From assembly GCA_009694195.1 (NCBI GenBank), contig SHVQ01000009.1, positions 10,294-74,293 of the forward strand: a DNA stretch of 64,000 nt, in the 5' to 3' direction. Of the stretch, positions 31,938 through 46,338 are shown in pieces. A program made the translations under genes and the position numbers. A model generated the notes under the pieces. That model ran no database searches. It saw only the letters and a program-made list of their open reading frames with translations, and had not been told where the DNA came from. Every line of letters starts with the position of its first letter. Position 1 is the stretch's first letter. This DNA is from Rhodospirillales bacterium (GTDB lineage Bacteria; Pseudomonadota; Alphaproteobacteria; Rhodospirillales; SHVQ01).

Positions 31938-31946
31938 TTGTCGGCC

Positions 31947-32189
31947 ATGAAAACCGTCTCTGCACGCGCGGCTAATCAGTCGTTCTCGAAGCTTCTCGCC
32001 CGCGCGGCGGCCGGCGAGGAGGTCGTCATCACGCGCCGCGGCAAGCCGGTGGCGAAGATCGGTCCGATCGCCAAACGCACCGCCGACAAGGCTCGCGAAG
32101 CTGCAATCAAACGGATGATTACCCGGATGCGGAAAGGTATGCATCTCGGCGGTGTTCGCTACACCCGTGACCAGATGCACGAACGTTGA
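31947..32189 (+). CDS. type II antitoxin, Phd/YefM family
   Basis: MKTVSARAANQSFSKLLARAAAGEEVVITRRGKPVAKIGPI is a typical Phd N-terminus. Its stop overlaps the toxin start. Confidence 0.8.
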   Translation: MKTVSARAANQSFSKLLARAAAGEEVVITRRGKPVAKIGPIAKRTADKAREAAIKRMITRMRKGMHLGGVRYTRDQMHER

Positions 32190-32647
32190 AATTCACGTTC
32201 GACACAAACGTTCTCGTTTATGCGACGGACGTGGATGCCAGCGAGAAGCATACGATCGCGGCTGATTTGATCACACGCGCCACGAAGGCGGATTGCGTGC
32301 TCATTCTCCAAAGCCTATCGGAGTTCTTTAACGTCGCGATGCGCCAGGCCCGGCTGGAACTCGCGGACGCTGTCGGATTCGTCGAGGATTGGGGCTCCGT
32401 CTTCCCGGTCGTCGCAGCCGACAAACGAACGCTGTTGATCGCGATGGATGCGGTCCGTCATCACATGATTCCGCTTTGGGACGCTATGCTGTGGGCGACA
32501 GCACGACAAGCTGGCTGCCACCTTCTGCTCACCGAGGATTTCCAAGATGGGAGAACGCTCGAAGGCGTGACCTTTGTTAATCCGTTTCTTCCTCACAACG
32601 AAACCCTGATCTCCACAGTCTTGGCGAGTCCGGCAGGAGAGCCTTGA
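32186..32647 (+). CDS. vapC: type II toxin, PIN-domain ribonuclease VapC
   Basis: MKFTFDTNVLVYATD carries the first PIN acidic residue. LLLTEDFQDG is a later acidic motif. 153 aa. Confidence 0.8.
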   Translation: MKFTFDTNVLVYATDVDASEKHTIAADLITRATKADCVLILQSLSEFFNVAMRQARLELADAVGFVEDWGSVFPVVAADKRTLLIAMDAVRHHMIPLWDAMLWATARQAGCHLLLTEDFQDGRTLEGVTFVNPFLPHNETLISTVLASPAGEP

Positions 32648-32713: not shown

Positions 32714-33694
32714 ATGCCCCGAACGTCCCGCCGAGCCGCCAAGACGCCGTCCAAAGACGACATCGCGCGGCTCTATCGCGGGCTTTTCCTCATTCGCCGG
32801 GCGGAAGAGGAGGTCGAGCACGTCTACCCCTCGGACAAGATCAAGAGCCCGGTTCATCTCGCCATCGGCCAGGAAGCGGTGTCGGTCGCCATCTGCGACG
32901 CCTTGCGCCCCGATGACGTGCTCGGATGCACCTACCGCTCCCATGCCGCGTATCTCGCCAAAGGCGGCGATCTCGGAGCGATGATGGCCGAGATGTACGG
33001 AAAGGCGACGGGGTGTGCCCGCGGCAAGGGCGGTTCCATGCACCTGGTCGACATGCAGCACCTGCTGCTCGGAGCGTCGGCGGTGGTCGGCACCGGGATT
33101 CCCATCGCGGCCGGCTACGCCATCGCGCTCAAACGCGAAAAGAAGCGCCGTGTCGCGGTCACGCTCTTCGGCGACGGGGCGACAGAAGAAGGCTGCTTCT
33201 ACGAGACGCTCAACTTCGCAGGACTTCACAAGCTGCCGCTGCTCTTCGTCTGCGAAAACAATTTTTATTCCATTCACACCCACATCTCGAAGCGGTGGTC
33301 GAATCTGGACGTGTGCGGGCGGGCGCGCGCGTTCGGCGTGCCGGCGAAGCAGATCGTCGACGGTGATATCTTCAAAATTCGTGCGGCGGCCGCGGCCGCC
33401 GTCGATCGCATCCGCCGGGGCGGCGGGCCCGAGTTCCTCGAGATTCATACCTACCGCTGGCGCCAGCACGTGGGTCCCGGCGGCGACTACGACGCGGGCT
33501 ACCGGAGCGAGCGCGAGGCCAGGAAGTGGATGAAATCCGATCAGGTCGCTCGCCTCGCCGCCATGTTGGCATCCGCCACACGGGTGCGGATCGAAGACGA
33601 GGTAAACGCCAAAATCTCGGAGGCCATCGCCTTCGCCGAATCGAGCCCGTTCCCAGGGCCTGAGGATCTTCTCGCCGATGTCTTCGCCGACTGA
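32714..33694 (+). CDS. ThDP-dependent dehydrogenase E1 component, alpha subunit (pyruvate/acetoin dehydrogenase E1-like)
   Basis: 326 aa. YRSHAAYLAKGG, GKGGSMHL and the ThDP motif FGDGATEEGCFYETLNFA...LFVCENNFYS are present. Confidence 0.85.
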   Translation: MPRTSRRAAKTPSKDDIARLYRGLFLIRRAEEEVEHVYPSDKIKSPVHLAIGQEAVSVAICDALRPDDVLGCTYRSHAAYLAKGGDLGAMMAEMYGKATGCARGKGGSMHLVDMQHLLLGASAVVGTGIPIAAGYAIALKREKKRRVAVTLFGDGATEEGCFYETLNFAGLHKLPLLFVCENNFYSIHTHISKRWSNLDVCGRARAFGVPAKQIVDGDIFKIRAAAAAAVDRIRRGGGPEFLEIHTYRWRQHVGPGGDYDAGYRSEREARKWMKSDQVARLAAMLASATRVRIEDEVNAKISEAIAFAESSPFPGPEDLLADVFAD

Positions 33695-34751
33695 CCGCAA
33701 GGGCCGGCTGCTCACGTACGTGGGGGCACTGCAAGAGGCCGTCTCTCAGGAGATGGACCGCGACCCATCCGTGTTCGTGATGGGTCTCGATGTCGTCGAT
33801 CACAAAGGCATCCAAGGCTCGACGCAAGGGCTTCCCGAACGCTTCGGTCCAGACCGCGTGTTTCACACGCCGCTCTCCGAGGACGCGATGGCAGGCGTTG
33901 CCATCGGCGCCGCGATGGCGGGGATGCGCCCGATCTACGTTCACATCCGCATGGACTTCCTCATGCTCTGCATGAACCAGCTCATCAATATCGCGGCCAA
34001 GGCCCGCTACATGTACGGCGGCCAGGTCAGCGTTCCGATGGTCGTGCGCAGCATGATCGGCAAGTCGTGGGGCCAGGGCGCGCAGCATAGCCAGGGCCTG
34101 CATGCCATGTTCATGCATGTCCCCGGTCTGAAGGTCGTGGCGCCGGCGACCGCCTATGACGCCAAAGGGTGCCTCATCGCGGCAATTCGCGACAACAATC
34201 CGGTGATTTTCGTCGAACACCGGCTACTTTACTTCACCGACGCCTACGTACCTGAGGAATCCTATACCGTGCCGTTCGGACACGCCCGCGTGTGCACGCC
34301 CGGAGACGACATCACGATCGTCGGGATATCGAACATGCTGGTCGAGGCCTTGCGCGCGCGCGAGCTTTTGACAGAGGTCGGAATCCACGCCGAGGTCATC
34401 GATCCCATCTCGCTCGTGCCGCTCGACTCTGAAACAATTGTCCGCTCGGTCGCACGCACGAAGCGCCTTCTCGTCGTCGACAATGCGTGGACGACATGCG
34501 GGGCGAGCGCCGAGATCATGGCGCGTGTGATCGAGACGCTGGAACCGAGAGAGCTCCGCGCGATCCGGCGCCTCGGCTTCGCGCCCTCGACATGCCCGAC
34601 CACGCCCTCTCTCGAACGGCTCTTCTATCCGAATCCCGCCTCTATTGCCTCGGCCGCGCACGCCATGGTACGCCCCGAGGCCGATCGCTGGGAACCGAGC
34701 GCGGAAACGGCCGCGCTCGCCTACCAGATGAACTTTCGGGGGCCATTCTGA
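33678..34751 (+). CDS. ThDP-dependent dehydrogenase E1 component, beta subunit (transketolase-like pyrimidine-binding and C-terminal domains)
   Basis: 357 aa. LTYVGALQEAVSQEMDRDPSVFVMGLDV...RVFHTPLSEDAMAGVAIGAAMAGMRPI. It overlaps the alpha stop by 17 nt. Confidence 0.85.
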   Translation: MSSPTDRKGRLLTYVGALQEAVSQEMDRDPSVFVMGLDVVDHKGIQGSTQGLPERFGPDRVFHTPLSEDAMAGVAIGAAMAGMRPIYVHIRMDFLMLCMNQLINIAAKARYMYGGQVSVPMVVRSMIGKSWGQGAQHSQGLHAMFMHVPGLKVVAPATAYDAKGCLIAAIRDNNPVIFVEHRLLYFTDAYVPEESYTVPFGHARVCTPGDDITIVGISNMLVEALRARELLTEVGIHAEVIDPISLVPLDSETIVRSVARTKRLLVVDNAWTTCGASAEIMARVIETLEPRELRAIRRLGFAPSTCPTTPSLERLFYPNPASIASAAHAMVRPEADRWEPSAETAALAYQMNFRGPF

Positions 34752-35938
34752 GCAAGCCGCAGTCGCCCGCGCACTATTCGCTTGCCGCATCCTCCTGGGG
34801 CCCGGAGGAGACCGAAGCCGCTCGTCGCGTTCTCGATAGCGGCTTCGTCACCATGGGCGACAACGTGGCCCGCTTTCAAAAAGAATTCGCCGCCTACTTC
34901 GGGATGAAACACGCGGTGATGACGAATTCCGGCTCATCGGCCAATCTGATCGCGGTCGCCAGTCTCTTCTTCAAGAAGGATCGCCCGCTTCAGCGCGGCG
35001 ACGAGGTGATCGTCCCGGCCATCTCCTGGAGCACGACCTACCATCCGCTCCAGCAGTACGGCCTGAAGCTCCGCTTCGTCGACGTGAACCTGGAGACCCT
35101 CAACATCGACGAGACGAAGCTCGAAGAAGCATTGACGCCGCGGACGCGAATGATCATTGCGGTCAGCATCCTCGGCAATCCCGCGCCGCTCGACGTCATC
35201 CGAGACTTTGCCGACCGCCACGACCTCTATTTCATGGAGGACAACTGCGAATCCATGGACGCCGAGATCGAGGGACGGAAGACCGGCACATTTGGTGACC
35301 TCAACACGTTCAGCTTCTTCTTCTCCCATCACATCTCGACGATGGAAGGCGGCATGGTGCTGACGGACGACACGGAGCTCGCGCACCTCTGCCTCGCCTT
35401 GCGCGCGCACGGCTGGACGCGGGACCTGCCGGTCGGAAGCCCGCTTTTCGAGCGCCGCTCCAACGATCACTTCGAGGCCTACCGGTTCATTCTGCCCGGC
35501 TATAACGTCCGGCCGCTGGAAATTTCGGGAGCGATCGGGCGCGAGCAGTTGAAAAAACTGCCGGCGATGACCGAGGCCCGCCGCAGGAACTGGGCCGTGT
35601 TTCACGGGCTCTTCGCGGGCGACGAGCGTTTCATTATCCAACGCGAAAACGGAAAGACATCCTGTTTTTGCTTCACGATCGTGCTCAATCCGAAGCGCAA
35701 CCCAAACCGCGAGCGCATCTTCGAGGCGCTCCGCGACGCCGACATCGGCTTCCGCATCATTACCGGCGGTTGCTTTCTTGCCCACGACGCGATCAAGTAT
35801 TTCGACTACACGACGGTCGGCACGATGGAGAACGCGTTTACGGCGCATGAGCTCGGTTTCTTTGTCGGCAACCACCCCTACGACCTGACGCCGCAGATCG
35901 GGCGCCTGCGCGATGTCCTCGACCGCGCCTGCCGGTAG
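34747..35938 (+). CDS. colD: PLP/PMP-dependent NDP-4-keto-6-deoxyhexose 3-dehydratase, ColD-like (DegT/DnrJ/EryC1 family with His replacing the catalytic Lys)
   Basis: YSLAASSWGPEE..., NSGSSANL, EDNCESM, FSFFFSHHISTMEGG (HH at 35327-35332) and LRAHGWTR are present. No canonical start lies before the conserved N-terminus; the only candidates are ATT at 34747 or CTG at 34750, overlapping the E1-beta TGA. Confidence 0.75.
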
Positions 35939-35945
35939 ACCGTCG

Positions 35946-36890
35946 ATGGCCAAGCCGCTCAACATTCTCGTCACCGGCGGCGGCGGCTATCTGGGATCGG
36001 TCCTGGTCCCGGAGTTGCTCGCGGCCGGGCACCGGGTCACGGTGCTCGACACCTTCATGTACCGGCAGAACTCGCTCGCGAGCGTATGCTCCGATCCCAA
36101 CTTCGACGTCGTACGCGGCGACGCCCGCAATCCCGACACTTTGACGCCCTTGATAAAGCGGGCCGACCTTGCGATTCCTCTGGCGGCCATCGTCGGCGCA
36201 CCCGCCTGCGACCGCGATCGGGTTGCGGCCGAAAGCGTCAACCGAGATGCCGTCGTCACGCTGCTGGGCCTTCTCGGCCGCAACCAGCGGGTCATGATGC
36301 CGATCACCAACAGCGGCTATGGTGTCGGCGAGAAGGGCAAGTTCTGTACAGAGGACACGCCGCTCCGGCCGGTCTCGCTGTACGGCCGGACGAAGGTCGA
36401 GGCCGAAAGAGCGGCGCTCGAGCGCGGCAATTGCATCAGCTTCCGTCTCGCGACCGTGTTCGGCATGGCACCGCGCATGCGGATCGATCTCTTGGTCAAT
36501 GATTTCGTCCACCGCGCCGTCTACGACCGCGCGGTCGTCGTGTTCGAGGGCCACTTCAAGCGCAACTACATCCACATCCGCGACGTGGCGCGCGCGTTCC
36601 TGCATGGCATCGAGCGCTTCGATGCGATGAAGGACCGGCCTTACAACGTCGGCCTCTCGGACGCCAATCTCTCGAAGATCGAGCTTTGCGAGCGGATCAA
36701 AAAACATCTGCCGAAATTCGTTTACCTGGAGGCGCCGGTCGGGGAGGACCCGGACAGGCGCGACTACATCGTCTCCAACGCCAGAATCGAGGCAACGGGC
36801 TTCCGTCCGCGCCATACCCTCGACGAAGGCATCGGCGAGCTCATCAAAGGATACAAGATGATCCGCGATGCGAGGTTCGGGAACGTGTAG
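35946..36890 (+). CDS. NAD-dependent epimerase/dehydratase (extended SDR)
   Basis: LNILVTGGGGYLGSVLVPELLAAGHRVTVLD is the Rossmann motif and SLYGRTKVEAE is the YxxxK motif. The ATG at 35946 lies 8 nt after the ColD-like stop. Confidence 0.85.
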   Translation: MAKPLNILVTGGGGYLGSVLVPELLAAGHRVTVLDTFMYRQNSLASVCSDPNFDVVRGDARNPDTLTPLIKRADLAIPLAAIVGAPACDRDRVAAESVNRDAVVTLLGLLGRNQRVMMPITNSGYGVGEKGKFCTEDTPLRPVSLYGRTKVEAERAALERGNCISFRLATVFGMAPRMRIDLLVNDFVHRAVYDRAVVVFEGHFKRNYIHIRDVARAFLHGIERFDAMKDRPYNVGLSDANLSKIELCERIKKHLPKFVYLEAPVGEDPDRRDYIVSNARIEATGFRPRHTLDEGIGELIKGYKMIRDARFGNV

Positions 36891-37766: not shown

Positions 37767-39248
37767 ATGGATCTCGTGCTCGTCAATCCCGGTGGCCGGG
37801 AGGCCATCTACCAGGAGCTCGGCACCGACCTCACGGCGGTCGAGCCGCCGCTTTGGTGCCGGCTTCTCGCCGGCTATGCGCGGGACCGCGGCCACTCCGT
37901 CGCCATCCTCGATTCGGAGGCCGAATCGTGGGGTCCGGAGACGGTGGCGAAGCGGGTCGCGGAGCTCGACCCCAGGCTCGTCTGCATGGTGGTGTTCGGC
38001 CATCAGCCGTCCGCCTCCACGCAGCAGATGGTCGGCGCGAGCGCGGCCTGCGCCGCGATCAAGCGGGCGGCGCCGGCCGTTCCCCTCCTCATCGTCGGCG
38101 GCCACGTCTCGGCTTTGCCCGCGCGCACCTTGCGGGAGGAAAGCGTCGATTACGCCTGCAAGGGCGAGGGACCGGTCACCGTCGACCGCCTGCTCGCGGC
38201 CTTGAAGGCCGACCGCGCATCCGACCTGAGTACCATTCCCGGCCTTGTGTGGCGCGATGGAGACGCCGTTCGCGTCAACCCGTCGGCACCGTTGATCCAG
38301 GACCTCGACGCGGACCTCCACGGCAACGCATGGGACCTGCTGCCGATGGAGAAGTACCGGGCGCACAACTGGCAGTGCTTCGGGGATCTGAATAGCCGGA
38401 AGCCCTACGCGTCGATCTATACGTCCCTCGGCTGTCCCTATAAGTGCCACTTCTGCTGCATCAACGCGCCGTTCGAGGTGAACCGCTACCGGATGCGCAA
38501 CCCGGACAAGGTGGCCGCCGAAATCGACCGCCTCCACGCCGCTTACGGGGTGAAGACGATCAAGATCATCGATGAGATGTTCGTGCTGAACGAGCGGCAC
38601 GTGCTCGCGATCTGCGATCGCCTGATCGAGCGCGACTACGACCTGAACATCTGGGCCTATGCGCGGGTCGACACGGTGAAGCAGCACATGCTGGACCGGC
38701 TCCGGCGCGCGGGCGTGCGCTGGCTCGCGCTCGGCATCGAGTCGGGCTCGAAGCACGTCCGTGACGGGGCGCTGAAATCGCTGAAGCAGGACGACATCGT
38801 CGGCATCGTCAGGGCGATCCAAGCCGCCGATATCAACGTCATCGGGAATTTCATCTTCGGCCTGCCCGACGACAACATCGACACCATGCGTGAAACGCTC
38901 GGCCTCGCACAGGGGCTCAACTGCGAGTTCGCCAACTTCTATTCGGCCATGGCCTATCCGGGCTCTCCCCTCTACGCGACGGCACTCGCGAAGGGATGGC
39001 CGCTTCCCGAGCGCTGGTCCGGCTATTCACAGCACAGCTACGATTGCCTCCCGCTGCCGACCGAGTCGCTCTCGGCCGCCGCCGTCCTCAAGTTCCGCGA
39101 CGAGGCTTTCCACGAATACTTCGCGAGCCCGCGCTATCTTGAAATGGTGCAGCGCCGGTTCGGCCGCGAGACCCGTGCCCACATCGAGGACATGGCCGGC
39201 CACCGCCTCAGGCGAAAAATCCTCGAGGGGCGGGAAGCCGCCGAATGA
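37767..39248 (+). CDS. B12-binding-domain radical SAM enzyme (class B, probable C-methyltransferase)
   Basis: 493 aa. The N-terminal Rossmann-like LVLVNP...VAILDSEAE...LVCMVVFG...LLIVGGHVSALP is cobalamin-domain-like. The CPYKCHFC (Cx3Cx2C) motif lies at 38433-38456. Confidence 0.8.
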   Translation: MDLVLVNPGGREAIYQELGTDLTAVEPPLWCRLLAGYARDRGHSVAILDSEAESWGPETVAKRVAELDPRLVCMVVFGHQPSASTQQMVGASAACAAIKRAAPAVPLLIVGGHVSALPARTLREESVDYACKGEGPVTVDRLLAALKADRASDLSTIPGLVWRDGDAVRVNPSAPLIQDLDADLHGNAWDLLPMEKYRAHNWQCFGDLNSRKPYASIYTSLGCPYKCHFCCINAPFEVNRYRMRNPDKVAAEIDRLHAAYGVKTIKIIDEMFVLNERHVLAICDRLIERDYDLNIWAYARVDTVKQHMLDRLRRAGVRWLALGIESGSKHVRDGALKSLKQDDIVGIVRAIQAADINVIGNFIFGLPDDNIDTMRETLGLAQGLNCEFANFYSAMAYPGSPLYATALAKGWPLPERWSGYSQHSYDCLPLPTESLSAAAVLKFRDEAFHEYFASPRYLEMVQRRFGRETRAHIEDMAGHRLRRKILEGREAAE

Positions 39249-40006
39249 CCGAAGCTCGGGATTTGTCGGGCGTCGCGGTCGCCGTTCTCGCGGGCGGGCT
39301 CGGCACCCGAATTCGGGCCACGCTCGGCGACACGCCGAAGGTGCTGGCGCCGGTCAACGGCCGCGCCTATCTCGATCATCTCCTCGACCGCCTAGCCGTC
39401 CACCGGCCTGCCCGGATCGTCCTCTGCCTCGGCGACCGCTCCGAGCGCGTGCTTGCCCATCTGGAACGCCACCCTCGGCGCGGTCCGGCGATCGAATCCC
39501 TCGTCGAGAGCGCTCCGCTGGGAACGGCCGGGGCCCTTCGCCACGCATTGCCGCGGTTGACCACGGAGCCGGTGCTCGTCATGAACGGCGACAGCTGGAT
39601 CGACGCCGACCTCGGCGCCTTTGTCGCCGCCCATCGAAAGCATGGTGCGCCTGCTTCGATCTTCTGCGCCCGCGTGGACGATGCCTCCCGCTTCGGGCGC
39701 GTCGAGGTGGACCTGCAAGGCTACGTCGTCCGCTTCGTTGAAAAAGATCGGGCGGGCCGGGGCGCGGCGCTGATCAACGCCGGGGTCTACGCCTTCTCGC
39801 AAGCGGTCCTCGGCCGCGTCAAGACCGGCACCGGGGCATCCCTCGAATACGACGTGCTGGCCAAGCTCGCGCCGGGGACGCTCTATGCGCACACCGTTAG
39901 GGGCGCCGCCTTCGTCGACATCGGCACGCCCGAGGGTCTTGCGCGCGCGGCCGAGGTGCTGCCGAAAGCCCTTCCCGAAAACATTCGTCGAACGGGGGCG
40001 GCGTGA
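39245..40006 (+). CDS. sugar-1-phosphate nucleotidyltransferase (HddC/ManC-like)
   Basis: VAVLAGGLGTRIRATLGDTPKVLAPVNG is the G-x-G-T-R motif, and ESAPLGTAGAL is present. An ATGA overlap links it to the upstream radical SAM gene. Confidence 0.85.
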   Translation: MTEARDLSGVAVAVLAGGLGTRIRATLGDTPKVLAPVNGRAYLDHLLDRLAVHRPARIVLCLGDRSERVLAHLERHPRRGPAIESLVESAPLGTAGALRHALPRLTTEPVLVMNGDSWIDADLGAFVAAHRKHGAPASIFCARVDDASRFGRVEVDLQGYVVRFVEKDRAGRGAALINAGVYAFSQAVLGRVKTGTGASLEYDVLAKLAPGTLYAHTVRGAAFVDIGTPEGLARAAEVLPKALPENIRRTGAA

Positions 40007-41007
40007 TCATCAGCCGCACGCCTTTCCGCGTGTCCCTTTTCGGCGGCGGCTCCGATTATCCGCTCTGGTACCGCGCGCACGGCGGCGCCGTGATCGGCTT
40101 CGCCATCAACAAGTACTGCTACATCAGCATGCGGCCGCTGCCCCCGTTCTTCGACCACAAGTACCGCATCGTTTATTCCCGCATCGAGAACGTGAATGCG
40201 ATCGAAGAAATCCAGCACCCGGCCGTGCGCCACGTGCTCGGCAATACCGGGATGGATTTCGGTGTCGAGATCCACCACGACGGCGATCTGCCGGCCCGCT
40301 CGGGGCTCGGGTCGAGCTCGTCGTTCACGGTTGGGCTCCTGAACGCCGTCCACGCCCAGTATGGACGGATGTCGACCAAGGCGCAGCTTGCCGAGGAGGC
40401 GATCCGCATCGAGCAAGACGTGATCCGCGAGAACGTCGGCTCCCAGGATCAGGTATGGGCGGCCTACGGCGGGCTCAACCGGGTGGATTTCCGGCGCGAC
40501 GGCAGTTTCGGGGTCGACCCGATCATCATGAACGGAGAGCGGCAGGACCGCCTGATCAAGTCCTTCATGCTGGTGTTCACCGGTCTTTCCCGCCAGGCGA
40601 GCGAGATCGCCGGGAAAAAGATCGCCAACCTAAAAAACCGCGAAGGCCACATCCGCTCGATGATGGGGATGGTGGACGAGGCGGCGGCGATTCTCGGCTC
40701 GTCAAGTCGGCCGCTGGAAGAACTGGGCGTCCTGCTGCACGAATCCTGGCGCTTGAAACGGGAGCTCACGGACGGCATCACCAATGCGACGATCGATTCC
40801 ATTTACGAGGCAGCGCGCGCGGCGGGCGCCGTCGGCGGCAAGCTCATGGGCGCCGGCGGCGGGGGATTCATGCTGTTCTTCGCCGCGCCGGAGCGCCAGC
40901 AGGCGATCCGCGACGCCCTCGCCAAGCTCGTGCACGTCGCTGTTGACGTCGACCGCGCGGGCAGCCGCATCGTGGTCTATGAACCGGACGGCCTTCACAA
41001 GCGCTGA
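40003..41007 (+). CDS. GHMP-family sugar kinase (HddA-like)
   Basis: IISRTPFRVSLFGGGSDYP is an HddA-type N-terminus. PARSGLGSSSSFTVG is GHMP motif II. GKLMGAGGGGF is motif III. Confidence 0.85.
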   Translation: MIISRTPFRVSLFGGGSDYPLWYRAHGGAVIGFAINKYCYISMRPLPPFFDHKYRIVYSRIENVNAIEEIQHPAVRHVLGNTGMDFGVEIHHDGDLPARSGLGSSSSFTVGLLNAVHAQYGRMSTKAQLAEEAIRIEQDVIRENVGSQDQVWAAYGGLNRVDFRRDGSFGVDPIIMNGERQDRLIKSFMLVFTGLSRQASEIAGKKIANLKNREGHIRSMMGMVDEAAAILGSSSRPLEELGVLLHESWRLKRELTDGITNATIDSIYEAARAAGAVGGKLMGAGGGGFMLFFAAPERQQAIRDALAKLVHVAVDVDRAGSRIVVYEPDGLHKR

Positions 41008-41019: not shown

Positions 41020-41619
41020 ATGGTGAAGCCCGCGGGAGAGAAAGGGGCGCCGCCTGTCTCCGTGCGCGGGCGCCGCCTGCTCGGCGAGAACCGCGTGTGG
41101 AACGTGTACCTCGACCATATCGTCGGCGAGTCCGGTGCCGCCATCGAGGACTATCTGGTCGTCGAGCCGAAGGGCCTTGGCGCCACCGGCATCGGCGGCG
41201 TCGCCATCCTTCCGATCTGGGAGGGCGACATCGTGCTGCTGAAGGCCTACCGCCACCCCGTCCGCCTCTACACGTGGGAGCTCGCGCGCGGATTCCTCGA
41301 CCCCGGGGAAGAGCCCGCGGCCGCCGCGCTTCGCGAGATGGAGGAAGAAACCGGCCTCACGTGCGCTCCGGCCGACATCCGGCCGCTCGGCTACGTGCTT
41401 CCCGAATCGAGCACGATCGCCGGCAAGGAGGCCGTCTTCGTCGCCTTGAAGTGCAGGCCGGGCGGCGCCGTCGACACCAGCGAGCCCGGGCTCGGGAATC
41501 GCCACCGGTTTTCACCGCAAGACGTGAAGCGCATGCTGGCGCGCTACGAGATCGAGGACGCAACCGCGGTCGTGACTCTCTATCGATATTTCGCGCTCGG
41601 CGACGAGCCCGCGCGCTAG
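41020..41619 (+). CDS. NUDIX hydrolase (nucleotide-sugar/ADP-ribose pyrophosphatase-like)
   Basis: The Nudix box GFLDPGEEPAAAALREMEEETGL is present. Confidence 0.85.
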   Translation: MVKPAGEKGAPPVSVRGRRLLGENRVWNVYLDHIVGESGAAIEDYLVVEPKGLGATGIGGVAILPIWEGDIVLLKAYRHPVRLYTWELARGFLDPGEEPAAAALREMEEETGLTCAPADIRPLGYVLPESSTIAGKEAVFVALKCRPGGAVDTSEPGLGNRHRFSPQDVKRMLARYEIEDATAVVTLYRYFALGDEPAR

Positions 41620-41620: not shown

Positions 41621-42496
41621 TCACGCGGCCGGCTTCCGGCCGGCGACGATGCGGAGGCCGCCGAACGGAAACCGGACACCCGCGCGGATCAACGCGATCT
41701 CGGCGGATAGAACGGCTTCCAGCGTGCGATTGAGCGGCGCCGGCAACAGGTGCTCGGCCTCGAACGCGCGGGTCGACTTTTTCGCGAGCAGGCGGCGTGA
41801 CAGGTACTGGGGCACGAAGAGCGACGCCATGAAGGACGTATCCAGCAGAACCTCGAAACCGGCCTCTCGCGCCTTGTCGGCGAGTTCATGGCCTTGATAG
41901 CGCCGGACGTGGCCGGTCTCGGCGTCGAGCCGGCTCCAGAACGCCATGTGCTGGGGCACCGTGAGAAGCACGCCGCCCCCGGGTCGGATCGCCCGGTGAA
42001 TGGCGCGGAGCGCGCCCACGTCGTCCTCGATGTGCTCGACCACATCGAAGGCGCCGACCACATCGAAGTGCTCGGCGAACGGGATGCGCGAGGCCTCCGT
42101 ATGGAAGAGCGTTGCGGCGTCGCCGATCCGCTCCGTGGTGACGGCGAGCGAATCGAGGGCGAGGTCGCTGCCGTAGAGCTCAAGCTCGGGGTTCGCGGAC
42201 CGGATGCCATCGAGGACATAGCCGGTTCCGACGCCCAGGTCGTAGAGCCTGCGTGCGGCGGGAAAAAGCGAGGCAAGCGCCCAAAGAATCAGGCGGCGGC
42301 GCGTCCGGTGATAGAAGCTCTGCTCCTCGCACGCCACCATGCGGGTGTAGACGCCGCGGTTGAACTCCTTCGGCCCCGCGACCTCGCCTGCGACGAAGCT
42401 CGGCCAGCCGTTCACCATGCGGGGCGCGTAGCCGCACGCCTCGCAGCGCCAATCCGCGGCCGTGACCGGCTTGCCGCAGCCAACGCACTGTTTCAT
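41621..42496 (-). CDS. class I SAM-dependent methyltransferase with N-terminal Cys4 zinc ribbon
   Basis: From the ATG at 42496: MKQCVGCGKPV..WRCEACGY, then LYDLGVGTGYV (motif I) and VGAFDVVEHIEDD. The track start at 42736 runs through REP-like repeats. Confidence 0.8.
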   Translation of the reverse strand: MKQCVGCGKPVTAADWRCEACGYAPRMVNGWPSFVAGEVAGPKEFNRGVYTRMVACEEQSFYHRTRRRLILWALASLFPAARRLYDLGVGTGYVLDGIRSANPELELYGSDLALDSLAVTTERIGDAATLFHTEASRIPFAEHFDVVGAFDVVEHIEDDVGALRAIHRAIRPGGGVLLTVPQHMAFWSRLDAETGHVRRYQGHELADKAREAGFEVLLDTSFMASLFVPQYLSRRLLAKKSTRAFEAEHLLPAPLNRTLEAVLSAEIALIRAGVRFPFGGLRIVAGRKPAA

Positions 42497-42544
42497 CGGG
42501 GGGACCCTAGTTGGCTTAACCACCGGCATCAAGGTAAGAGCGTG

Positions 42545-42705
42545 AGAATATTTCGTCACTCCCGCGAACACGGGAGTCCAGGGAAACTGGAAACAGATCG
42601 AAAAATCTGGGTTCCCGCTCCTCATCCTGAGCCGCGCGCCTCTCCTTCGAGACGCAGCCAGTGGCTGCTCCTCAGGATGAGGCGCGCGAGTCGAAGGACG
42701 CGGGA
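42545..42705. repeat. REP-like palindromic elements in the divergent intergenic region
   Basis: ACTCCCG-cgaaca-CGGGAGT hairpin, then the long inverted repeat CCTCATCCTGAG ... CTCAGGATGAGG. Translation gives the HPEE/LRMR-type junk peptides typical of such repeats. Confidence 0.6.
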
Positions 42706-42783
42706 ACGACGCGGTGGCGGTCCCTCCGCTTGACACCCCCTGCCCCCGGCCATATACGCCGGACCACGAAAGAGGGGGCCTGA

Positions 42784-43776
42784 ATGGGCCAGTTTCTCGC
42801 CGACATCCGCGAGCATCGCAGCTTCGTGCTCGGTTTCGCGCCTATCGCCGCGCTTGCGCTGGCCATGGGCGTGGGAGCGCCGCTCGCCATTCAGTCCCTC
42901 GGAGATCGGATTCCGGTCGTGGGGGCGCTGCTGCACGCGATCGGGATCGCGTTCGATCCGAAAATCCTCTACCTGCCGCTCGGCATGGTGTTCGTCACCC
43001 TCGTGAGCCTCGGGATCGAAGCCGCCGGCCTCGGCTATCGCGATTCCACCGTGCGCCGCATCCTGACGAACCGGTCGCCGTCCGTGCGCACGGACCTGTT
43101 CTATTTTCTGCTGCGCGTTTCCGGCCTCACGGCCCTCATCGCCTTTCTGGTCTCGTTCGGGACGTTCGGGCTGCTCGTCGGCTGGATCGAGCAGCGGGTG
43201 GATCTCCGGGTGCTGCAACACGTCGAGAACCCGGCTGTCCAGTTCGCGGCCGTGGCGCTCGCGCAGTCGCTCGCCTTCTACCTCTTCCATCGCCTCATGC
43301 ACACGAAGCTCTTGTGGGAGGTTCACAAGGTCCATCACTCGGCCGAGGACTACAATCCGCTGCTTCCCTACCGGAACCACCCCATCGATTTCCTCGGCGC
43401 CACCCTGCTCGGCGCGCTTTTCGCGGCCGTGCTGGGTGCCGGCGCCGAAGTCGTGACCGCCTGGAGCGTGGCTAACGGCTTCTACCAGTCGCTCGTCCAT
43501 TCCCGGCTTCAATGGAAATGGAAATGGCTGGAGTCCGTCGTCATCACGCCCGCCGCCCATCGCGTCCACCATTCGACGGCGCCCGAGCACTTCAACCGCA
43601 ACTACGGCATCCTCACATTTTGGGATTGGCTGTTCGGAACCTACTACGCGCCGCGCGGGGAGCCGGCCGAGATCGGCGTCGCCGACCGCGCCAATTTCAA
43701 CACCGACCGGTATTTCGCCGAGATGGGCCTCGTCGTCCTCCGGTGGCTCGGGCGCGCGCGGGCGGGGCGCGGATGA
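42784..43776 (+). CDS. fatty acid hydroxylase / sterol desaturase superfamily membrane di-iron enzyme
   Basis: 330 aa and polytopic. It carries the His boxes HRLMH, HKVHHS and HRVHHS. Confidence 0.8.
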   Translation: MGQFLADIREHRSFVLGFAPIAALALAMGVGAPLAIQSLGDRIPVVGALLHAIGIAFDPKILYLPLGMVFVTLVSLGIEAAGLGYRDSTVRRILTNRSPSVRTDLFYFLLRVSGLTALIAFLVSFGTFGLLVGWIEQRVDLRVLQHVENPAVQFAAVALAQSLAFYLFHRLMHTKLLWEVHKVHHSAEDYNPLLPYRNHPIDFLGATLLGALFAAVLGAGAEVVTAWSVANGFYQSLVHSRLQWKWKWLESVVITPAAHRVHHSTAPEHFNRNYGILTFWDWLFGTYYAPRGEPAEIGVADRANFNTDRYFAEMGLVVLRWLGRARAGRG

Positions 43777-45248
43777 CCGCGCCGGCACGCTCTCGCGCCC
43801 GGCCGTTTCCCTTCTATGTGCTGGCGGCGCTCGTCTATGCGAGCCTGCTCGCCGTCGCCGTGCTTTATCTCGCTTACCCCGCGTTCATCGATCACGGCGA
43901 GCCCAGCACGCTCTTGATCGCCTGGCGTCTTCTCCAAGGCTTGCCTGCCTACCCGCCGTTTTCGGCGCCCGAGCGGATCACCAACATTTACGGGCCCCTC
44001 GCCTACGGCGTGAATACGGTCGTGCTCGCCGCGTTCGGCCCTTCGATCCCGGCCGGCAAGGCGGCCGCGGTCGCGGCCGCCATCGCCATGCCGGCGATGA
44101 TCTTCTGGAGCCGCATCCGCGACGGCTGGACGGTCGCCGCGGCCGGAGTTCTGCTGGCGGCAGGCTACGCGCTCCTTCACTTGCCCGCCACGGTGTGGAA
44201 CCGCCCGGATTCCTTCGTGGCGCTCTGCGTCGCCGTTGCGCTCGCGGTCTTGCGGATGCAAAGCCTGGATGGCCGCGAGACCCTGCGCGCCCTCCTGATC
44301 GCGCTCTGCGCGGCGCTTGCGGCGGGCGCCAAGCTGCACGCGGCGCTCTACTTCGCGCCCATCGTCCTCTTTTACGTCTGGGAGCGCGGGCTCGGAACGC
44401 TCATCCTCATGGGCGCCGCCGGAGCGCTTCTGGTGCTGGCGCCGTTCGCGCTGCCGCCCTTCTCGCTCGTCGACTATCTCTCCTGGTTCGAGCCGGTGGC
44501 GGCCGGCAAGCAGAACTCGTGGGGCGTCTTTCTCAAGGTTTTCCGCTACTCGCTGTTCTATTTCGCGCCGCTCGTGTTTCCGCTGCTCGATCGGAAGACG
44601 CTGCGCGCCCGCGACTGGGCGTACGTCGGCGCCTACGCGGGATGCCTCGTCTTGTCGTTCTTCCCCGCCTCGAAGCCGGGCGCCGGGATGCATTACCTCT
44701 TGCCGTTCGCCCCCATTGCCGTCGATATCGCGCTCCGCTACGGCGCCGCGGGGTTCACCAAGCGGATGGCGACAGCCGCGGCCGCCATCCTCGCCCTCGC
44801 CCTTCTCGCGGTCAGCATGCCCATCCAGGAACGCTTCGTTCGCGCGCTGCACTGGGACGAGGCCCGCGCCGTCGGCGGCGAGATTCGGCAGATCATGGCC
44901 GACTTCAGCGGCCGGACCATCGAAATGGGCGTCGGCGACACCGTCGTCTCCTACCCCCGCACGTTCCAGAAGACGATCCTGGTCACGGCGGGGCACCCCT
45001 ACTCACTCGACGCGGCGATCGTGACGGAGACGGCCTATCTCAAGATCCCGCTGCCGCCGGAGACGGTTGCCCGCATTCGCGCCTGCCGCACGGACGTTTG
45101 GCTCATCCCCGCGGGCGAGCGCCCGTTCGCCATGGTCGGCTATTACGCGATGCCGGCGTTCGGCCAGGAGTTCCAGGACGCGTTCCTCGCCGCCTACGAG
45201 AAGCGCCGGAGCTATCGGTACTTCGACGCTTGGGCCTGCCGGCGTTAG
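43773..45248 (+). CDS. polytopic membrane protein, probable GT-C-fold glycosyltransferase (ArnT/PMT_2-like architecture)
   Basis: 491 aa with about 10 TM segments, then a ~150-aa soluble C-terminal domain. An ATGA overlap links it to the hydroxylase gene. Called on architecture and context only. Confidence 0.5.
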   Translation: MTAPARSRARPFPFYVLAALVYASLLAVAVLYLAYPAFIDHGEPSTLLIAWRLLQGLPAYPPFSAPERITNIYGPLAYGVNTVVLAAFGPSIPAGKAAAVAAAIAMPAMIFWSRIRDGWTVAAAGVLLAAGYALLHLPATVWNRPDSFVALCVAVALAVLRMQSLDGRETLRALLIALCAALAAGAKLHAALYFAPIVLFYVWERGLGTLILMGAAGALLVLAPFALPPFSLVDYLSWFEPVAAGKQNSWGVFLKVFRYSLFYFAPLVFPLLDRKTLRARDWAYVGAYAGCLVLSFFPASKPGAGMHYLLPFAPIAVDIALRYGAAGFTKRMATAAAAILALALLAVSMPIQERFVRALHWDEARAVGGEIRQIMADFSGRTIEMGVGDTVVSYPRTFQKTILVTAGHPYSLDAAIVTETAYLKIPLPPETVARIRACRTDVWLIPAGERPFAMVGYYAMPAFGQEFQDAFLAAYEKRRSYRYFDAWACRR

Positions 45249-46201
45249 CCGGACATCGGACCGCCCGGCTCGAAGCCGATCTTGTCCTGGATGATGAAGC
45301 GGGGGCGCCCGCGCACTTCCTTGTAAATCCGCAGCACGTAGAGCCCGAGCGTGCCGATCGCGGCGACGATCGTCGCCCAAAAAAATGTGAGGAGCCCGAT
45401 AAACGCGAGCGTGCGGCCGCCCGCGTGGCCGGCGAGGCTCATCAGAAGGCCCGCGAGGACGGCCACGACCGCGGCGATGATCCCGATCAGCCCCGTGCCG
45501 GCAATCACATAGATCGGGACGAACGAAAAGGACGTGATCGCGGTGATGAAGGCCTTCGCCGGATTACGGCTGAACAGCGGGAATTTGCTGGTTCCACGCG
45601 CGCGCCCGACCCGCTCGTAGGGCACGGTCTCCTGACGGAACCCGATCCAGGCCGCAAGCCCGCGAATGTAGGGATCGTATTCCTTCAGGCACAGAAACTG
45701 ATCGAGCGCGCGGCGGGAGAGTAGCTTGAAATCTCCCGCCTCGACCGGAAGCTTGAGGGTCGAAAAAAAACGGATGATCTGATACGCCCGCTTGGTCACC
45801 CATTTCTTGAGCCAGGTCTCTCCCTTGCGATCGAGCCGCACGGTGTGGATGACGTCCGCGCCCGCCCGCCAGCGCTGTAACAGCTCCGGCAGAAGCTCGG
45901 GCGGGTCCTGCAGATCGCTGTCCATGTAGATGAGCGCGTCGCCCGAAGCCACGCTCATGCCGGCCAGCACGCCCTCCGACGGCCCGAAGCGGCGCGACAG
46001 CGTGATGACCTTGATCCGGGGGTTCCTTTCCCGCTCGCCGAGGAGAACCTCGAGCGAACGGTCGGTCGAGGCGTCGTTGACGAAGATGAGCTCGTAGTCC
46101 TCGGGTCCCGGCTCGAGCGCCTTCGCCACTCGCGCGATCAATTCCGGCAGGTTCTGTTCCTCGTTCCGAAACGAGAACACGACGGAAACAAGCTGCGTCA
46201 T
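45245..46201 (-). CDS. family 2 glycosyltransferase, polyprenyl-phosphate sugar transferase type (ArnC/GtrB/DPM1-like)
   Basis: From the ATG at 46201: VSVVFSFRNEEQNL..YELIFVNDASTDRS, YMDSDLQDPPE (the DxD region) and two C-terminal TM helices. Confidence 0.85.
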   Translation of the reverse strand: MTQLVSVVFSFRNEEQNLPELIARVAKALEPGPEDYELIFVNDASTDRSLEVLLGERERNPRIKVITLSRRFGPSEGVLAGMSVASGDALIYMDSDLQDPPELLPELLQRWRAGADVIHTVRLDRKGETWLKKWVTKRAYQIIRFFSTLKLPVEAGDFKLLSRRALDQFLCLKEYDPYIRGLAAWIGFRQETVPYERVGRARGTSKFPLFSRNPAKAFITAITSFSFVPIYVIAGTGLIGIIAAVVAVLAGLLMSLAGHAGGRTLAFIGLLTFFWATIVAAIGTLGLYVLRIYKEVRGRPRFIIQDKIGFEPGGPMSG

Positions 46202-46338
46202 TCTGCGCCCTCCCGCTGCCGTGTACGCTATCTCGGGAACCGAAAGCAAGCCGCCGCAGGGCACGGGCGCCCTGAATTGCATCCCGCTCGATCTCCCTTT
46301 ACGATGCAGCCGATTCCAGAGGATGTGAGCGGGATTCA

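What the first reader, a model, noticed from the sequence alone, without database searches (positions are those of the whole stretch)
32714..34751. Orphan pyruvate/acetoin-dehydrogenase-type E1 alpha/beta pair with no E2/E3, embedded next to deoxysugar enzymes
The two subunits carry the ThDP-binding motif (GDGATEEG...NN) and transketolase-like domains. No lipoyl acyltransferase (E2) or dihydrolipoamide dehydrogenase (E3) lies anywhere nearby. The genes are translationally coupled to a ColD-type sugar 3-dehydratase. In actinomycete deoxysugar pathways, split E1 alpha/beta homologues without E2/E3 are implicated in adding two-carbon branches from pyruvate to keto-sugars. Examples are the eurekanate branch in avilamycin and the aldgarose branch in aldgamycin. 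YerE plays the analogous role for yersiniose in Yersinia using a different ThDP fold. A split-E1 branch-forming enzyme in a Gram-negative envelope glycan locus would be unusual.
Basis: partly seen in the sequence, partly recalled or inferred. Interest (0 to 1): 0.6.

Follow-up and report, generated by a model that had tools for sequence, protein, structure and literature searches.

The report
E2-less thiamine enzyme branching a heptose
Two genes that look like the first enzyme of pyruvate dehydrogenase have no partner subunits; they belong to a widespread, unstudied gene set that most likely adds a two-carbon branch from pyruvate to an activated seven-carbon sugar destined for the cell envelope.

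Summary
32714-33694 and 33678-34751 encode intact E1 alpha and beta subunits with conserved catalytic residues. No E2 or E3 gene lies on this contig. The genome's real pyruvate dehydrogenase, with E2 and E3, is on another contig.

The pair is not a stray dehydrogenase. In 83 related loci from many phyla, E1 beta follows E1 alpha in 81. A ColD-type sugar 3-dehydratase lies within 10 kb in 72, always with His-His in place of the Schiff-base lysine. No E2 or E3 was found in 1.3 Mb of these loci.

The neighbours point to GDP-heptose, not a 6-deoxyhexose: a Cj1427-like C4-dehydrogenase, an HddA/WcbL-like kinase and an HddC-like nucleotidyltransferase. The likely acceptor is therefore GDP-3-deoxy-4-keto-heptose, and the likely reaction is addition of an acetyl branch from pyruvate at C4. 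This is the chemistry proposed for AviB1/B2 and shown in vitro for KbDH.

Both subunits form well-supported clades. These group with other E2-less pairs, apart from E2-linked E1s.

One new detail: cassette E1 beta ends in a conserved tail, F-[K/R]-G-P-F, in 80 of 81 loci. It is absent from all 11 E2- or lipoyl-linked E1 betas examined.

Activity, product and target glycan remain untested.

The parts
32714..33694 (+). E1 alpha-type ThDP subunit, 326 aa, with GDG...NN motif and His252
   Evidence: Pfam E1_dh 2.1e-62. Scores 300.7 bits on TIGR03182, below the 393.85 cut-off. Motif residues are conserved in 82-83 of 83 relatives. The cassette clade has SH-aLRT 98.
33678..34751 (+). E1 beta-type subunit, 357 aa, with ThDP-activating Glu68 and His137
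   Evidence: Pfam Transket_pyr plus Transketolase_C. Scores 301.5 bits on NF006667, below the 321 cut-off. Follows E1 alpha in 81/83 loci. The cassette clade has SH-aLRT 99.
34662..34748 (+). C-terminal extension of E1 beta (residues 329-357), ending FRGPF
   Evidence: Solved E2-dependent E1 betas end at query residues ~326-328. 80/81 cassette E1 betas end in F-x-G-P-F. The tail is absent from 11 E2/lipoyl-linked E1 betas and from Thermus AcoB. In an AF2 monomer, pLDDT is ~92 for residues 331-340 and below 50 for the last seven.
34748..35938 (+). ColD-type PLP/PMP sugar 3-dehydratase (His-His for Lys), probable CTG start overlapping the E1 beta stop
   Evidence: 394 bits to ColD structure 2GMS, against 157 bits to the E1 dehydrase 3BCX. 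All 72 neighbouring homologues carry the HH motif. The CTG is kept in the independent assembly L106.
35913..36890 (+). SDR, Cj1427-like: predicted GDP-D-glycero-D-manno-heptose C4-dehydrogenase
   Evidence: 368 bits (E 3.6e-109) over the full length to PDB 6VO6/6VO8; the next hit scores 67 bits. A homologue lies in 62/83 loci. The Cj1427 reaction is described in PMC10680097.
37767..39248 (+). B12-binding-domain radical SAM enzyme, conserved cassette member of unknown reaction
   Evidence: Pfam B12-binding plus Radical_SAM. Found in 39/83 loci at 54-74% identity. The closest solved structure is the AprD4 diol dehydratase 6FD2, at a weak 68.7 bits.
39245..40006 (+). HddC-like sugar-1-phosphate (probably guanylyl) transferase
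   Evidence: Best solved relatives are 6JQ8/5XHW, '6-deoxy-D-mannoheptose pathway protein'. Weak NCBIfam matches to HddC and mannose-1-P guanylyltransferase. Found in 44/83 loci.
40003..41007 (+). GHMP kinase, HddA/WcbL-like heptose-phosphate kinase
   Evidence: Best solved relatives are 4USK/4USM, 3K85 and 4N3O, all heptose phosphate kinases. NF049969 HddA is the best NCBIfam match. Found in 49/83 loci at 48-67% identity.
41020..41619 (+). NUDIX hydrolase, recurrent accessory gene
   Evidence: Pfam NUDIX 2.1e-13. tblastn homologues in 6 of 83 loci; the S. magneticus and A. oryzae variants also carry an annotated NUDIX gene.
41621..42736 (-). Class I SAM-dependent methyltransferase (the + strand ORF 41888-42733 is a shadow)
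   Evidence: Pfam Methyltransf_23 3.7e-16 on the minus-strand ORF; the plus-strand ORF has no family hit.
42784..43776 (+). Membrane di-iron hydroxylase (FA_hydroxylase superfamily), accessory
   Evidence: Pfam FA_hydroxylase 7.1e-28. Four predicted TM segments.
43773..45248 (+). Polytopic membrane protein of unknown family, a candidate periplasmic transferase
   Evidence: At least 7 hydrophobic segments. No Pfam or NCBIfam hit. No detectable similarity to the GT-C of the S. magneticus cassette, so the role is inferred from position only.
45245..46282 (-). GT2 of the GtrB/ArnC/PgfS type: predicted polyprenyl-phosphate sugar synthase
   Evidence: Pfam Glycos_transf_2. NCBIfam PgfS 201 bits and ArnC 136 bits, both below cut-off. 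42% identical to the GT2 of the S. magneticus pDMC1 cassette. C-terminal TM helices predicted.
46339..48396 (+). Second B12-radical SAM enzyme, KedN5-like C-methyltransferase type
   Evidence: Pfam Radical_SAM plus B12-binding. NF033712 KedN5 family 260.8 bits, below cut-off. 65-66% identical copies in L024 and L037.

Best explanation
The two genes encode a heterotetramer-type E1 (alpha2beta2) thiamine-diphosphate enzyme that no longer works in a 2-oxoacid dehydrogenase complex. It serves as the C-C bond-forming step of a nucleotide-heptose tailoring pathway.

Inferred route:
1. Heptose 7-phosphate is supplied by a GmhA elsewhere in the genome.
2. The HddA-like kinase and HddC-like transferase of the cluster activate it to GDP-D-glycero-D-manno-heptose. 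The 7-phosphatase step is not encoded in the cluster.
3. The Cj1427-like SDR oxidises C4.
4. The ColD-type enzyme removes the 3-OH, giving GDP-3-deoxy-4-keto-heptose.
5. E1 alpha/beta decarboxylates pyruvate to hydroxyethyl-ThDP and adds it to the C4 ketone. The product is a 4-C-acetyl tertiary alcohol, a nine-carbon branched sugar.
6. The B12-type radical SAM enzymes and the methyltransferase modify the sugar further.
7. A GtrB/ArnC-like GT2 loads it onto a polyprenyl phosphate for transfer to an envelope glycan.

Shown here: gene identities, conserved synteny, systematic absence of E2/E3, intact catalytic residues, and separate clades for both subunits. Inferred: the donor, the acceptor carbon, the order of steps, the product and its destination.
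For: Separation from PDH:
- Separate paralogue. The genuine PDH E1 alpha (500.5 bits, cut-off 393.85), with E2 and E3, is on contig C12.
- The window pair scores below the PDH cut-offs. It is 35.5% (alpha) and 41.8% (beta) identical to the genome's own PDH.

Synteny and absence of E2/E3:
- Across 83 loci from Alphaproteobacteria, 'Deltaproteobacteria', Planctomycetota, Acidobacteriota, Cyanobacteria, Chloroflexota and others: E1 beta 81, ColD-type 72, Cj1427-like SDR 62, GHMP kinase 49, nucleotidyltransferase 44, B12-rSAM 39.
- All 72 DegT neighbours carry HH, not Lys.
- No E2 or E3 in 1.30 Mb of cassette loci, while four positive controls were found.

Neighbour identities:
- ColD 394 bits.
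- Cj1427-type SDR 368 bits.
- Heptose kinases and HddC.

Literature precedent:
- Cj1427 plus a ColD-like C3-dehydratase makes GDP-D-glycero-3-deoxy-4-keto-D-threo-heptose in vitro (PMC10680097).
- Split E1-type (alphaKADH2) enzymes add C2 branches from pyruvate to keto sugars. KbDH-alpha/beta was assayed in vitro; the aldgamycin enzyme was tested by feeding and gene knockout (PMC12247030; PMC4753412).

Other support:
- The window cluster has no C4-reductase, so the 4-ketone must be consumed some other way.
- Trees: the cassette is a supported clade for both subunits and is sister to other E2-less pairs.
- GmhA plus HldE on contig C5 can supply heptose 7-phosphate.
Against: - No biochemical data exist for any member of this cassette.
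- I could not place the pair against AviB1/B2, Pau11/12, AlmDI/DII or KbDH, so membership of the proven sugar-branching clade rests on context alone.
- The nearest non-cassette relatives I could fetch lie in clusters that are not sugar clusters: two Streptomyces plasmid pairs in PKS/NRPS-like clusters. E2-less E1 pairs therefore have more than one use.
- The histidines linked to lipoyl chemistry are retained.
- Donor identity (pyruvate) and attack at C4 are inferred.
- GmhB is not in the cluster, and the MAG is only 73% complete.
- That PDB 6VO6 is Cj1427 rests on my own knowledge of Huddleston et al. 2020 and on the depositor's name. I could not confirm it in the held library.
Confidence: 0.62

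Rival explanations
1. The E1 pair forms a C-C bond, but not at C4. Hydroxyethyl-ThDP is added to an aldehyde made elsewhere on the sugar, for example at C7 after a radical SAM diol dehydration or an oxidation. This would extend the chain into a linear higher sugar rather than making a branched one. Alternatively, the donor is a 2-oxo acid other than pyruvate.
For: ThDP carboligases prefer aldehydes as acceptors in general (PMC12247030). The conserved radical SAM enzyme is closest, weakly, to the diol dehydratase AprD4, which could create an aldehyde. Earlier unchecked notes describe related heptose operons with a split transketolase that are thought to extend rather than branch.
Against: The tightest partner of the pair is the ColD-type dehydratase (72/83 loci, usually the next gene). 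Its product carries exactly one carbonyl, at C4. The radical SAM gene is missing from about half of the loci, including Azospirillum lipoferum 4B. The window cluster offers no other way to dispose of the 4-ketone. According to the review, known alphaKADH2 enzymes are confined to C2 units from pyruvate.
Confidence: 0.14
2. The pair has a ThDP role other than carboligation. Examples are cleavage of an alpha-hydroxyketone in the sugar (acetoin-dehydrogenase-like), or production of an acetyl equivalent for O- or N-acylation through an unknown acceptor protein.
For: Acetoin-cleaving E1s belong to the same superfamily. The two Streptomyces relatives sit beside carrier-protein, condensation and AMP-binding genes, which suggests acyl delivery there. 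The conserved C-terminal tail of E1 beta may dock an unknown partner.
Against: No carrier protein, lipoyl protein or acyltransferase is conserved in the cassette. Cleavage next to C4 would open the pyranose ring. The ColD plus ThDP-enzyme pairing exactly mirrors the yersiniose logic, in which a 3-deoxy-4-keto sugar is followed by ThDP branching (PMC9306805).
Confidence: 0.08
3. It is an ordinary catabolic pyruvate or acetoin dehydrogenase E1 that uses the genome's E2 and E3 in trans and lies next to sugar genes by chance.
For: Overall fold, the ThDP motif and both active-site histidines are those of dehydrogenase E1s. The MAG is incomplete.
Against: Synteny with sugar enzymes is conserved across phyla at 53-82% identity. 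No E2 or E3 in 1.3 Mb of related loci. The pair scores below the curated PDH cut-offs while the real PDH passes. It falls in separate, supported clades away from all E2-adjacent E1s. The genome's own PdhB carries a lipoyl domain that this beta subunit lacks. The C-terminal tail is absent from all 11 E2/lipoyl-linked betas.
Confidence: 0.03

Closest known systems
alphaKADH2-type sugar C-branching E1 alpha/beta pairs of actinomycete antibiotic pathways (AviB1/AviB2 avilamycin, Pau11/Pau12 paulomycin, AlmDI/DII aldgamycin, KbDH-alpha/beta kibdelomycin)
   Same: Split E1 alpha/beta without E2/E3, embedded among nucleotide-sugar keto-forming enzymes. The predicted chemistry is decarboxylation of pyruvate and addition of the C2 unit to a sugar ketone, giving a tertiary alcohol (PMC4753412, PMC12247030).
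   Different: Those enzymes act on TDP/NDP deoxyhexoses or pentoses in Gram-positive secondary metabolism. This pair sits in a GDP-heptose-type cassette tied to envelope glycosylation genes, in Proteobacteria and many other phyla. Sequence relatedness to the characterised members was not testable here.
YerE / ErwE (yersiniose, erwiniose) of Gram-negative O-antigen clusters
   Same: Same pathway logic: a 3-dehydratase makes a 3-deoxy-4-keto nucleotide sugar, then a ThDP enzyme adds an acyl branch at C4 (PMC9306805).
   Different: YerE-type enzymes are single-chain, decarboxylase-fold (acetolactate-synthase-like) flavoproteins acting on CDP-3,6-dideoxy-4-keto-glucose. Here the enzyme has a two-subunit E1 fold and the substrate is a GDP-heptose derivative.
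Campylobacter jejuni capsular GDP-heptose modification enzymes (HddA/HddC, Cj1427 C4-dehydrogenase, HS:5 C3-dehydratase)
   Same: Close homologues of four of these enzyme types flank the E1 pair. Cj1427 combined with the C3-dehydratase gives GDP-D-glycero-3-deoxy-4-keto-heptose in vitro (PMC10680097).
   Different: C. jejuni finishes with epimerases and C4-reductases. It has no ThDP or radical SAM step. In that paper the 3-deoxy-6-hydroxy intermediate came from an artificial combination of enzymes, not from a natural route.
Pyruvate dehydrogenase complex E1 (heterotetrameric type; e.g. human 1NI4, G. stearothermophilus 1W85/3DUF)
   Same: Same fold and cofactor-binding motifs, with the catalytic Glu and His residues conserved.
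   Different: No E2 or E3. Scores below the equivalog cut-offs. Falls in a separate clade. E1 beta has an extra C-terminal tail ending FRGPF and, unlike the genome's own PdhB, no N-terminal lipoyl domain.

Membership tests
Heterotetrameric 2-oxoacid dehydrogenase-type E1 (ThDP) superfamily | E1_dh domain in alpha; Transket_pyr plus Transketolase_C domains in beta | tested here: met
   Pfam scores of 211, 134.5 and 90.6 bits, all far above the gathering scores.
Heterotetrameric 2-oxoacid dehydrogenase-type E1 (ThDP) superfamily | ThDP-binding GDG(X)~26NN motif, ThDP-activating Glu in beta, active-site His in alpha and beta | tested here: met
   G153-D154-G155...N182-N183, beta E68, alpha H252 and beta H137 are present and conserved in at least 81 relatives.
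Pyruvate dehydrogenase complex E1 (functional equivalog) | Scores above the curated equivalog cut-offs | tested here: not met
   Alpha scores 300.7 against 393.85 (TIGR03182). Beta scores 301.5 against 321 (NF006667) and 297.9 against 454 (NF008854). The genome's own PDH alpha scores 500.5.
Pyruvate dehydrogenase complex E1 (functional equivalog) | Operonic or nearby E2 (lipoyl acyltransferase) and E3 | tested here: not met
   None on contig C43. None in the window or in 87 cassette loci by tblastn, with positive controls found.
alphaKADH2 sugar C-branching enzymes (AviB1/B2 type) | E2-less split E1 located among enzymes that generate a keto nucleotide sugar | tested here: met
   Adjacent ColD-type dehydratase and Cj1427-like C4-dehydrogenase, with conserved synteny in 72 and 62 of 83 loci.
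alphaKADH2 sugar C-branching enzymes (AviB1/B2 type) | Phylogenetic clustering with characterised members (AviB1/B2, Pau11/12, AlmDI/DII, KbDH) | not testable with these tools
   Their sequences could not be fetched. The nearest named relatives obtained are E2-less pairs on Streptomyces plasmids in non-sugar clusters.
alphaKADH2 sugar C-branching enzymes (AviB1/B2 type) | Pyruvate-dependent carboligation onto a sugar ketone | not testable with these tools
   Needs an enzyme assay.
ColD-type nucleotide-sugar 3-dehydratase (neighbour that defines the acceptor) | His in place of the PLP Schiff-base Lys; full-length similarity to ColD rather than to [2Fe-2S] E1 dehydrase | tested here: met
   FSFFFSHHISTMEGG motif. 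394 bits to ColD 2GMS against 157 bits to 3BCX.
Cj1427-type GDP-heptose C4-dehydrogenase (neighbour that defines the sugar) | Full-length close similarity to Cj1427, well separated from 4,6-dehydratases | tested here: met
   368 bits to 6VO6 over residues 17-324. dTDP-glucose 4,6-dehydratases score at most 65 bits. That 6VO6 is Cj1427 is from my own knowledge.

The most novel reading that the evidence does not exclude
The cassette makes a ring-fused, bradyrhizose-like bicyclic nonose. After E1 alpha/beta installs a 4-C-acetyl group on GDP-3-deoxy-heptose, the AprD4-like radical SAM enzyme dehydrates the exocyclic C6-C7 diol to a C7 aldehyde. The acetyl methyl group then closes a six-membered carbocycle (C4-C5-C6-C7-C9-C8) by intramolecular aldol reaction. 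A separate possibility concerns the invariant C-terminal F-x-G-P-F tail of E1 beta. It may be the structural device that replaces E2 docking and converts a dehydrogenase E1 into a stand-alone carboligase. If so, it is a sequence marker for E2-independent E1s in general.
Probability: 0.08. Interest if true: 0.85.

Novelty: new variant of a known kind. Interest (0 to 1): 0.6.

Why it matters
Two-carbon branching of sugars by E1-type thiamine enzymes is known only from a handful of actinomycete antibiotic pathways, and only one such enzyme has been assayed in vitro. In Gram-negative glycans the job has been credited to the unrelated YerE family.

This window belongs to a very common but undescribed gene set: at least 493 species-representative genomes across many phyla, and thousands of metagenomic homologues. 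It joins such an enzyme to GDP-heptose chemistry and to lipid-carrier glycosylation.

If the prediction holds, it defines a new class of nine-carbon or larger branched sugars on bacterial surfaces. It would also enlarge the set of ketone-accepting ThDP carboligases sought for making chiral tertiary alcohols.

The work is immediately testable. The predicted acceptor can already be made enzymatically, and harmless cultured carriers exist: Azospirillum lipoferum 4B, Ferrovibrio terrae and Solidesulfovibrio magneticus RS-1.

Tried and rejected
1. Erwiniose route. I considered that the cassette makes erwiniose, with a B12-rSAM methylating C7 of a heptose. I rejected this because erwiniose is assigned to the YerE-type ErwE with a C4 keto-acid donor (PMC9306805).

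2. Bradyrhizose operon. I considered that this is the bradyrhizose operon: 7+2+1 = 10 carbons with a tertiary OH at C4. I did not adopt this. Earlier, unchecked notes say the Bradyrhizobium gdh operon uses a split transketolase, not E1 alpha/beta. No named Bradyrhizobium appeared among 240 close homologues.

3. Reference sequences. I tried to obtain AviB1/B2-type sequences for the tree. The plasmid search gave two Streptomyces E2-less pairs, but their clusters are PKS/NRPS-like, not sugar clusters. The key paper (Krug et al. 2024) is not held.

4. Lipoyl-related histidines as discriminators. Both are retained, so they are uninformative.

5. The 491-aa membrane protein. I tested whether it is the GT-C seen in the S. 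magneticus cassette and found no detectable similarity.

6. PDB 6VO6 as Cj1427. I tried to confirm this in the held papers and could not.

7. AF2 monomer of E1 beta. It does not place the terminal FRGPF. Its role needs a multimer model.
Full report
**What is in the sequence**

The window comes from contig C43 of a 2.5-Mb alphaproteobacterial MAG that is 73% complete. Its flanking genes fit that assignment: NtrBC/NtrYX, an IspDF fusion, Dus, Mfd and RecG.

At 32714-33694 and 33678-34751 lie two intact ORFs that overlap by 17 nt. They encode a 326-aa E1 alpha-type subunit and a 357-aa E1 beta-type subunit. Pfam assigns E1_dh to the first and Transket_pyr plus Transketolase_C to the second.

The catalytic apparatus is complete. 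The GDG...NN ThDP motif, alpha His252, beta Glu68 (the ThDP activator) and beta His137 are all present. They are conserved in 81-83 relatives.

**No dehydrogenase partners**

The genome holds E2 genes only on contigs C12 and C1. E3 genes lie on C1, C12, C36, C17 and C30. None is on C43.

- C12 carries the genuine pyruvate dehydrogenase. Its E1 alpha scores 500.5 bits on TIGR03182 (cut-off 393.85), and its E1 beta has the N-terminal lipoyl domain.
- The window pair scores 300.7 bits (alpha) and 301.5 bits (beta). Both are below the curated cut-offs.
- It is only 35.5% and 41.8% identical to the genome's own PDH subunits.

**The pair belongs to a conserved cassette**

A protein search returned thousands of homologues at 60-82% identity. 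It still confirmed 493 relatives, and I kept 80 loci. They come from Alphaproteobacteria, 'Deltaproteobacteria', Planctomycetota, Acidobacteriota, Cyanobacteria, Chloroflexota, Spirochaetales, Coxiellaceae and other groups.

I ran tblastn with the window's proteins against 83 loci. Homologues within 10 kb were found as follows:

| Gene | Loci with a homologue (of 83) |
|---|---|
| E1 beta | 81 |
| DegT-family gene | 72 |
| SDR | 62 |
| GHMP kinase | 49 |
| Nucleotidyltransferase | 44 |
| B12-radical SAM | 39 |

All 72 DegT homologues have His-His where aminotransferases have the Schiff-base lysine. Eight E2/E3 queries found nothing in 1.30 Mb of these loci, although they recovered four positive controls.

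The trait is patchy. Seven of 41 genomes of the same order carry it, the window's own included. Together with 53-65% identity across phyla, this points to horizontal spread of an accessory module.

**Which sugar**

- The DegT gene is a ColD-type 3-dehydratase. It scores 394 bits to ColD (2GMS) against 157 bits to the iron-sulfur E1 dehydrase.
- The only SDR in the cluster scores 368 bits over its full length to PDB 6VO6/6VO8; the next solved structure scores 67 bits. To my knowledge 6VO6 is Cj1427, the GDP-D-glycero-D-manno-heptose C4-dehydrogenase of Campylobacter jejuni. I could not confirm the PDB code in the held papers.
- The kinase is closest to heptose-phosphate kinases: WcbL 4USK, 3K85 and 4N3O.
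- The nucleotidyltransferase is closest to HddC, 6JQ8/5XHW.
- A GmhA-like isomerase and an HldE lie on contig C5, so heptose 7-phosphate is available.

Raushel and colleagues showed that Cj1427 plus a ColD-like C3-dehydratase converts GDP-heptose into GDP-D-glycero-3-deoxy-4-keto-D-threo-heptose in vitro (PMC10680097). That compound has a single carbonyl, at C4.

The window cluster contains no C4-reductase. Something else must therefore consume the ketone.

**What the E1 pair most likely does**

E1-type enzymes without E2 (the 'alphaKADH2' class) are proposed or shown to add a two-carbon unit from pyruvate to a sugar ketone. Examples are avilamycin, paulomycin, aldgamycin and kibdelomycin. KbDH-alpha/beta has been assayed in vitro with ketone sugar analogues (PMC4753412; PMC12247030).

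In Gram-negative O-antigens the same step is assigned to the unrelated YerE/ErwE enzymes. These act directly after a 3-dehydratase (PMC9306805). The gene order here (E1 alpha, E1 beta, ColD-type dehydratase, C4-dehydrogenase) reproduces that logic with a different ThDP fold and a heptose substrate.

My best explanation is therefore this. The pair decarboxylates pyruvate and adds hydroxyethyl-ThDP to C4 of GDP-3-deoxy-4-keto-heptose, giving a 4-C-acetyl branched nonose. This is inference; no member of the cassette has been assayed.

**Phylogeny**

I could not reach AviB1/B2-type sequences. Instead I used annotated plasmid records as comparators.

- In maximum-likelihood trees the cassette proteins form one clade, with SH-aLRT 98 for alpha and 99 for beta.
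- Their nearest neighbours are other E2-less pairs:
  - two on Streptomyces plasmids in PKS/NRPS-like clusters;
  - an Azospirillum oryzae variant next to GmhA and an HldE-like kinase;
  - a full cassette on Solidesulfovibrio magneticus pDMC1.
- All E2-adjacent E1s, Thermus AcoA and the genome's own PDH lie outside this group.

**A sequence signature**

Cassette E1 beta is about 29 residues longer at the C-terminus than solved E2-dependent E1 betas. In 80 of 81 complete sequences it ends in F-[K/R]-G-P-F (F-C-G-P-F in one). W338 is nearly invariant; P340, F353, G355, P356 and F357 are invariant in the 41-sequence alignment.

- The same kind of ending occurs in the A. oryzae variant (FRGPF) and in the two Streptomyces pairs (FAGPY, FIGPY).
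- It is absent from 11 E1 betas linked to an E2 or a free lipoyl protein (ten plasmid comparators plus the genome's own PdhB). It is also absent from Thermus AcoB and from the S. magneticus variant.
- An AF2 monomer model places the first part of the tail confidently (pLDDT about 92) but not the last seven residues. That is what one would expect if they bind a partner subunit or a ligand.

The function of the tail is unexplained.

**Rest of the cluster and destination**

Downstream of the kinase lie:

- a NUDIX hydrolase;
- a class I SAM methyltransferase on the minus strand (the plus-strand ORF there is a shadow);
- a membrane di-iron hydroxylase;
- a polytopic membrane protein of unknown family;
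- a GtrB/ArnC/PgfS-type GT2, 42% identical to the GT2 of the S. magneticus cassette;
- a second, KedN5-like B12-radical SAM enzyme.

This suggests that the finished sugar is loaded onto a polyprenyl phosphate and transferred outside the cytoplasm. The transferase was not identified.

The first radical SAM enzyme is closest, weakly, to the diol dehydratase AprD4. Its reaction is open.

**Junction with the dehydratase**

The ColD-like frame has no ATG, GTG or TTG before its conserved N-terminus. A CTG at 34748 overlaps the E1 beta stop as CTGA. An independent assembly from another sample (L106) keeps that CTG but has GTT where the window has ATT at 34745. The substitutions downstream of the CTG are consistent with coding in this frame. 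Translational coupling is thus plausible, through a non-canonical start.

**Relation to earlier notes**

Other agents of this scan reached the same general reading for look-alike cassettes in other genomes. I treat these notes as leads, not evidence, and I reproduced the key tests here.

Their notes on bradyrhizose-type operons stopped me from equating this cassette with the Bradyrhizobium operon, which they say uses a split transketolase.

**Verdict**

- It is a new variant of a known kind of enzyme, in an undescribed and widespread pathway whose product is unknown.

Noticed in passing
window 34745-34775: The ColD-like dehydratase lacks a canonical start codon. A CTG at 34748 overlaps the E1 beta stop (CTGA) and is kept in an independent assembly (L106), whereas the ATT at 34745 is not. 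The gene caller on L106 truncated the protein to a downstream ATG.
   Followed up: partly
window 34662-34748 and E1 beta of L007-L092, L099: E1 beta has a conserved C-terminal extension ending F-x-G-P-[F/Y]. It marks the cassette and other E2-less E1 pairs and is absent from E2/lipoyl-linked ones. Its function is unknown.
   Followed up: partly
window 36956-37633: A pentapeptide-repeat gene sits between the SDR and the radical SAM gene, where many other cassettes carry a second SDR. None of the 83 other loci has a homologue there.
   Followed up: no
window 41621-42736 (-) versus 41888-42733 (+): The plus-strand ORF is a shadow. The real gene is a class I SAM-dependent methyltransferase on the minus strand, so the cluster is not uniformly co-directional.
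   Followed up: yes
window 46339-48396 (+) versus 46336-48060 (-): A second B12-radical SAM enzyme, KedN5-like C-methyltransferase type, lies at the right edge. A long antisense ORF shadows it.
   Followed up: partly
window 37767-39248: The closest solved structure to the conserved B12-domain radical SAM enzyme is the sugar diol dehydratase AprD4 (6FD2, 68.7 bits), not a methylase. A dehydratase or rearrangement role cannot be excluded.
   Followed up: no
window 29627-31858 and 31890-32647: A SulP transporter fused to STAS and a cyclic-nucleotide-binding domain, followed by a Phd/VapC toxin-antitoxin pair, lies directly at the left border of the sugar cluster.
   Followed up: no
L092 (Azospirillum oryzae KACC 14407 plasmid, NZ_CP054615.1 204657-223631): A divergent variant of the cassette is built on ADP-heptose-type entry enzymes (SIS/GmhA plus an HldE-like PfkB kinase). 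It also has E1 alpha/beta, two DegT genes, a non-B12 radical SAM and a NUDIX.
   Followed up: partly
L090 (S. griseofuscus pSGRIFU1) and L099 (S. albogriseolus pSALBX2): The nearest named non-cassette relatives are E2-less E1 pairs in Streptomyces plasmid clusters. Their neighbours include condensation-domain, carrier-protein, ketosynthase and AMP-binding genes. This suggests a different, acyl-supplying use of the same enzyme type.
   Followed up: partly
L094 (Solidesulfovibrio magneticus RS-1 plasmid pDMC1, 18439-37380): A complete cassette lies on a 58.7-kb plasmid of a cultured magnetotactic bacterium, next to an IS66 element. It contains two GT2 genes, a radical SAM, NUDIX, kinase, E1 alpha/beta, an Fcl-like SDR, DegT, SDR, nucleotidyltransferase and an annotated lipid-carrier-dependent GT-C.
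   Followed up: partly
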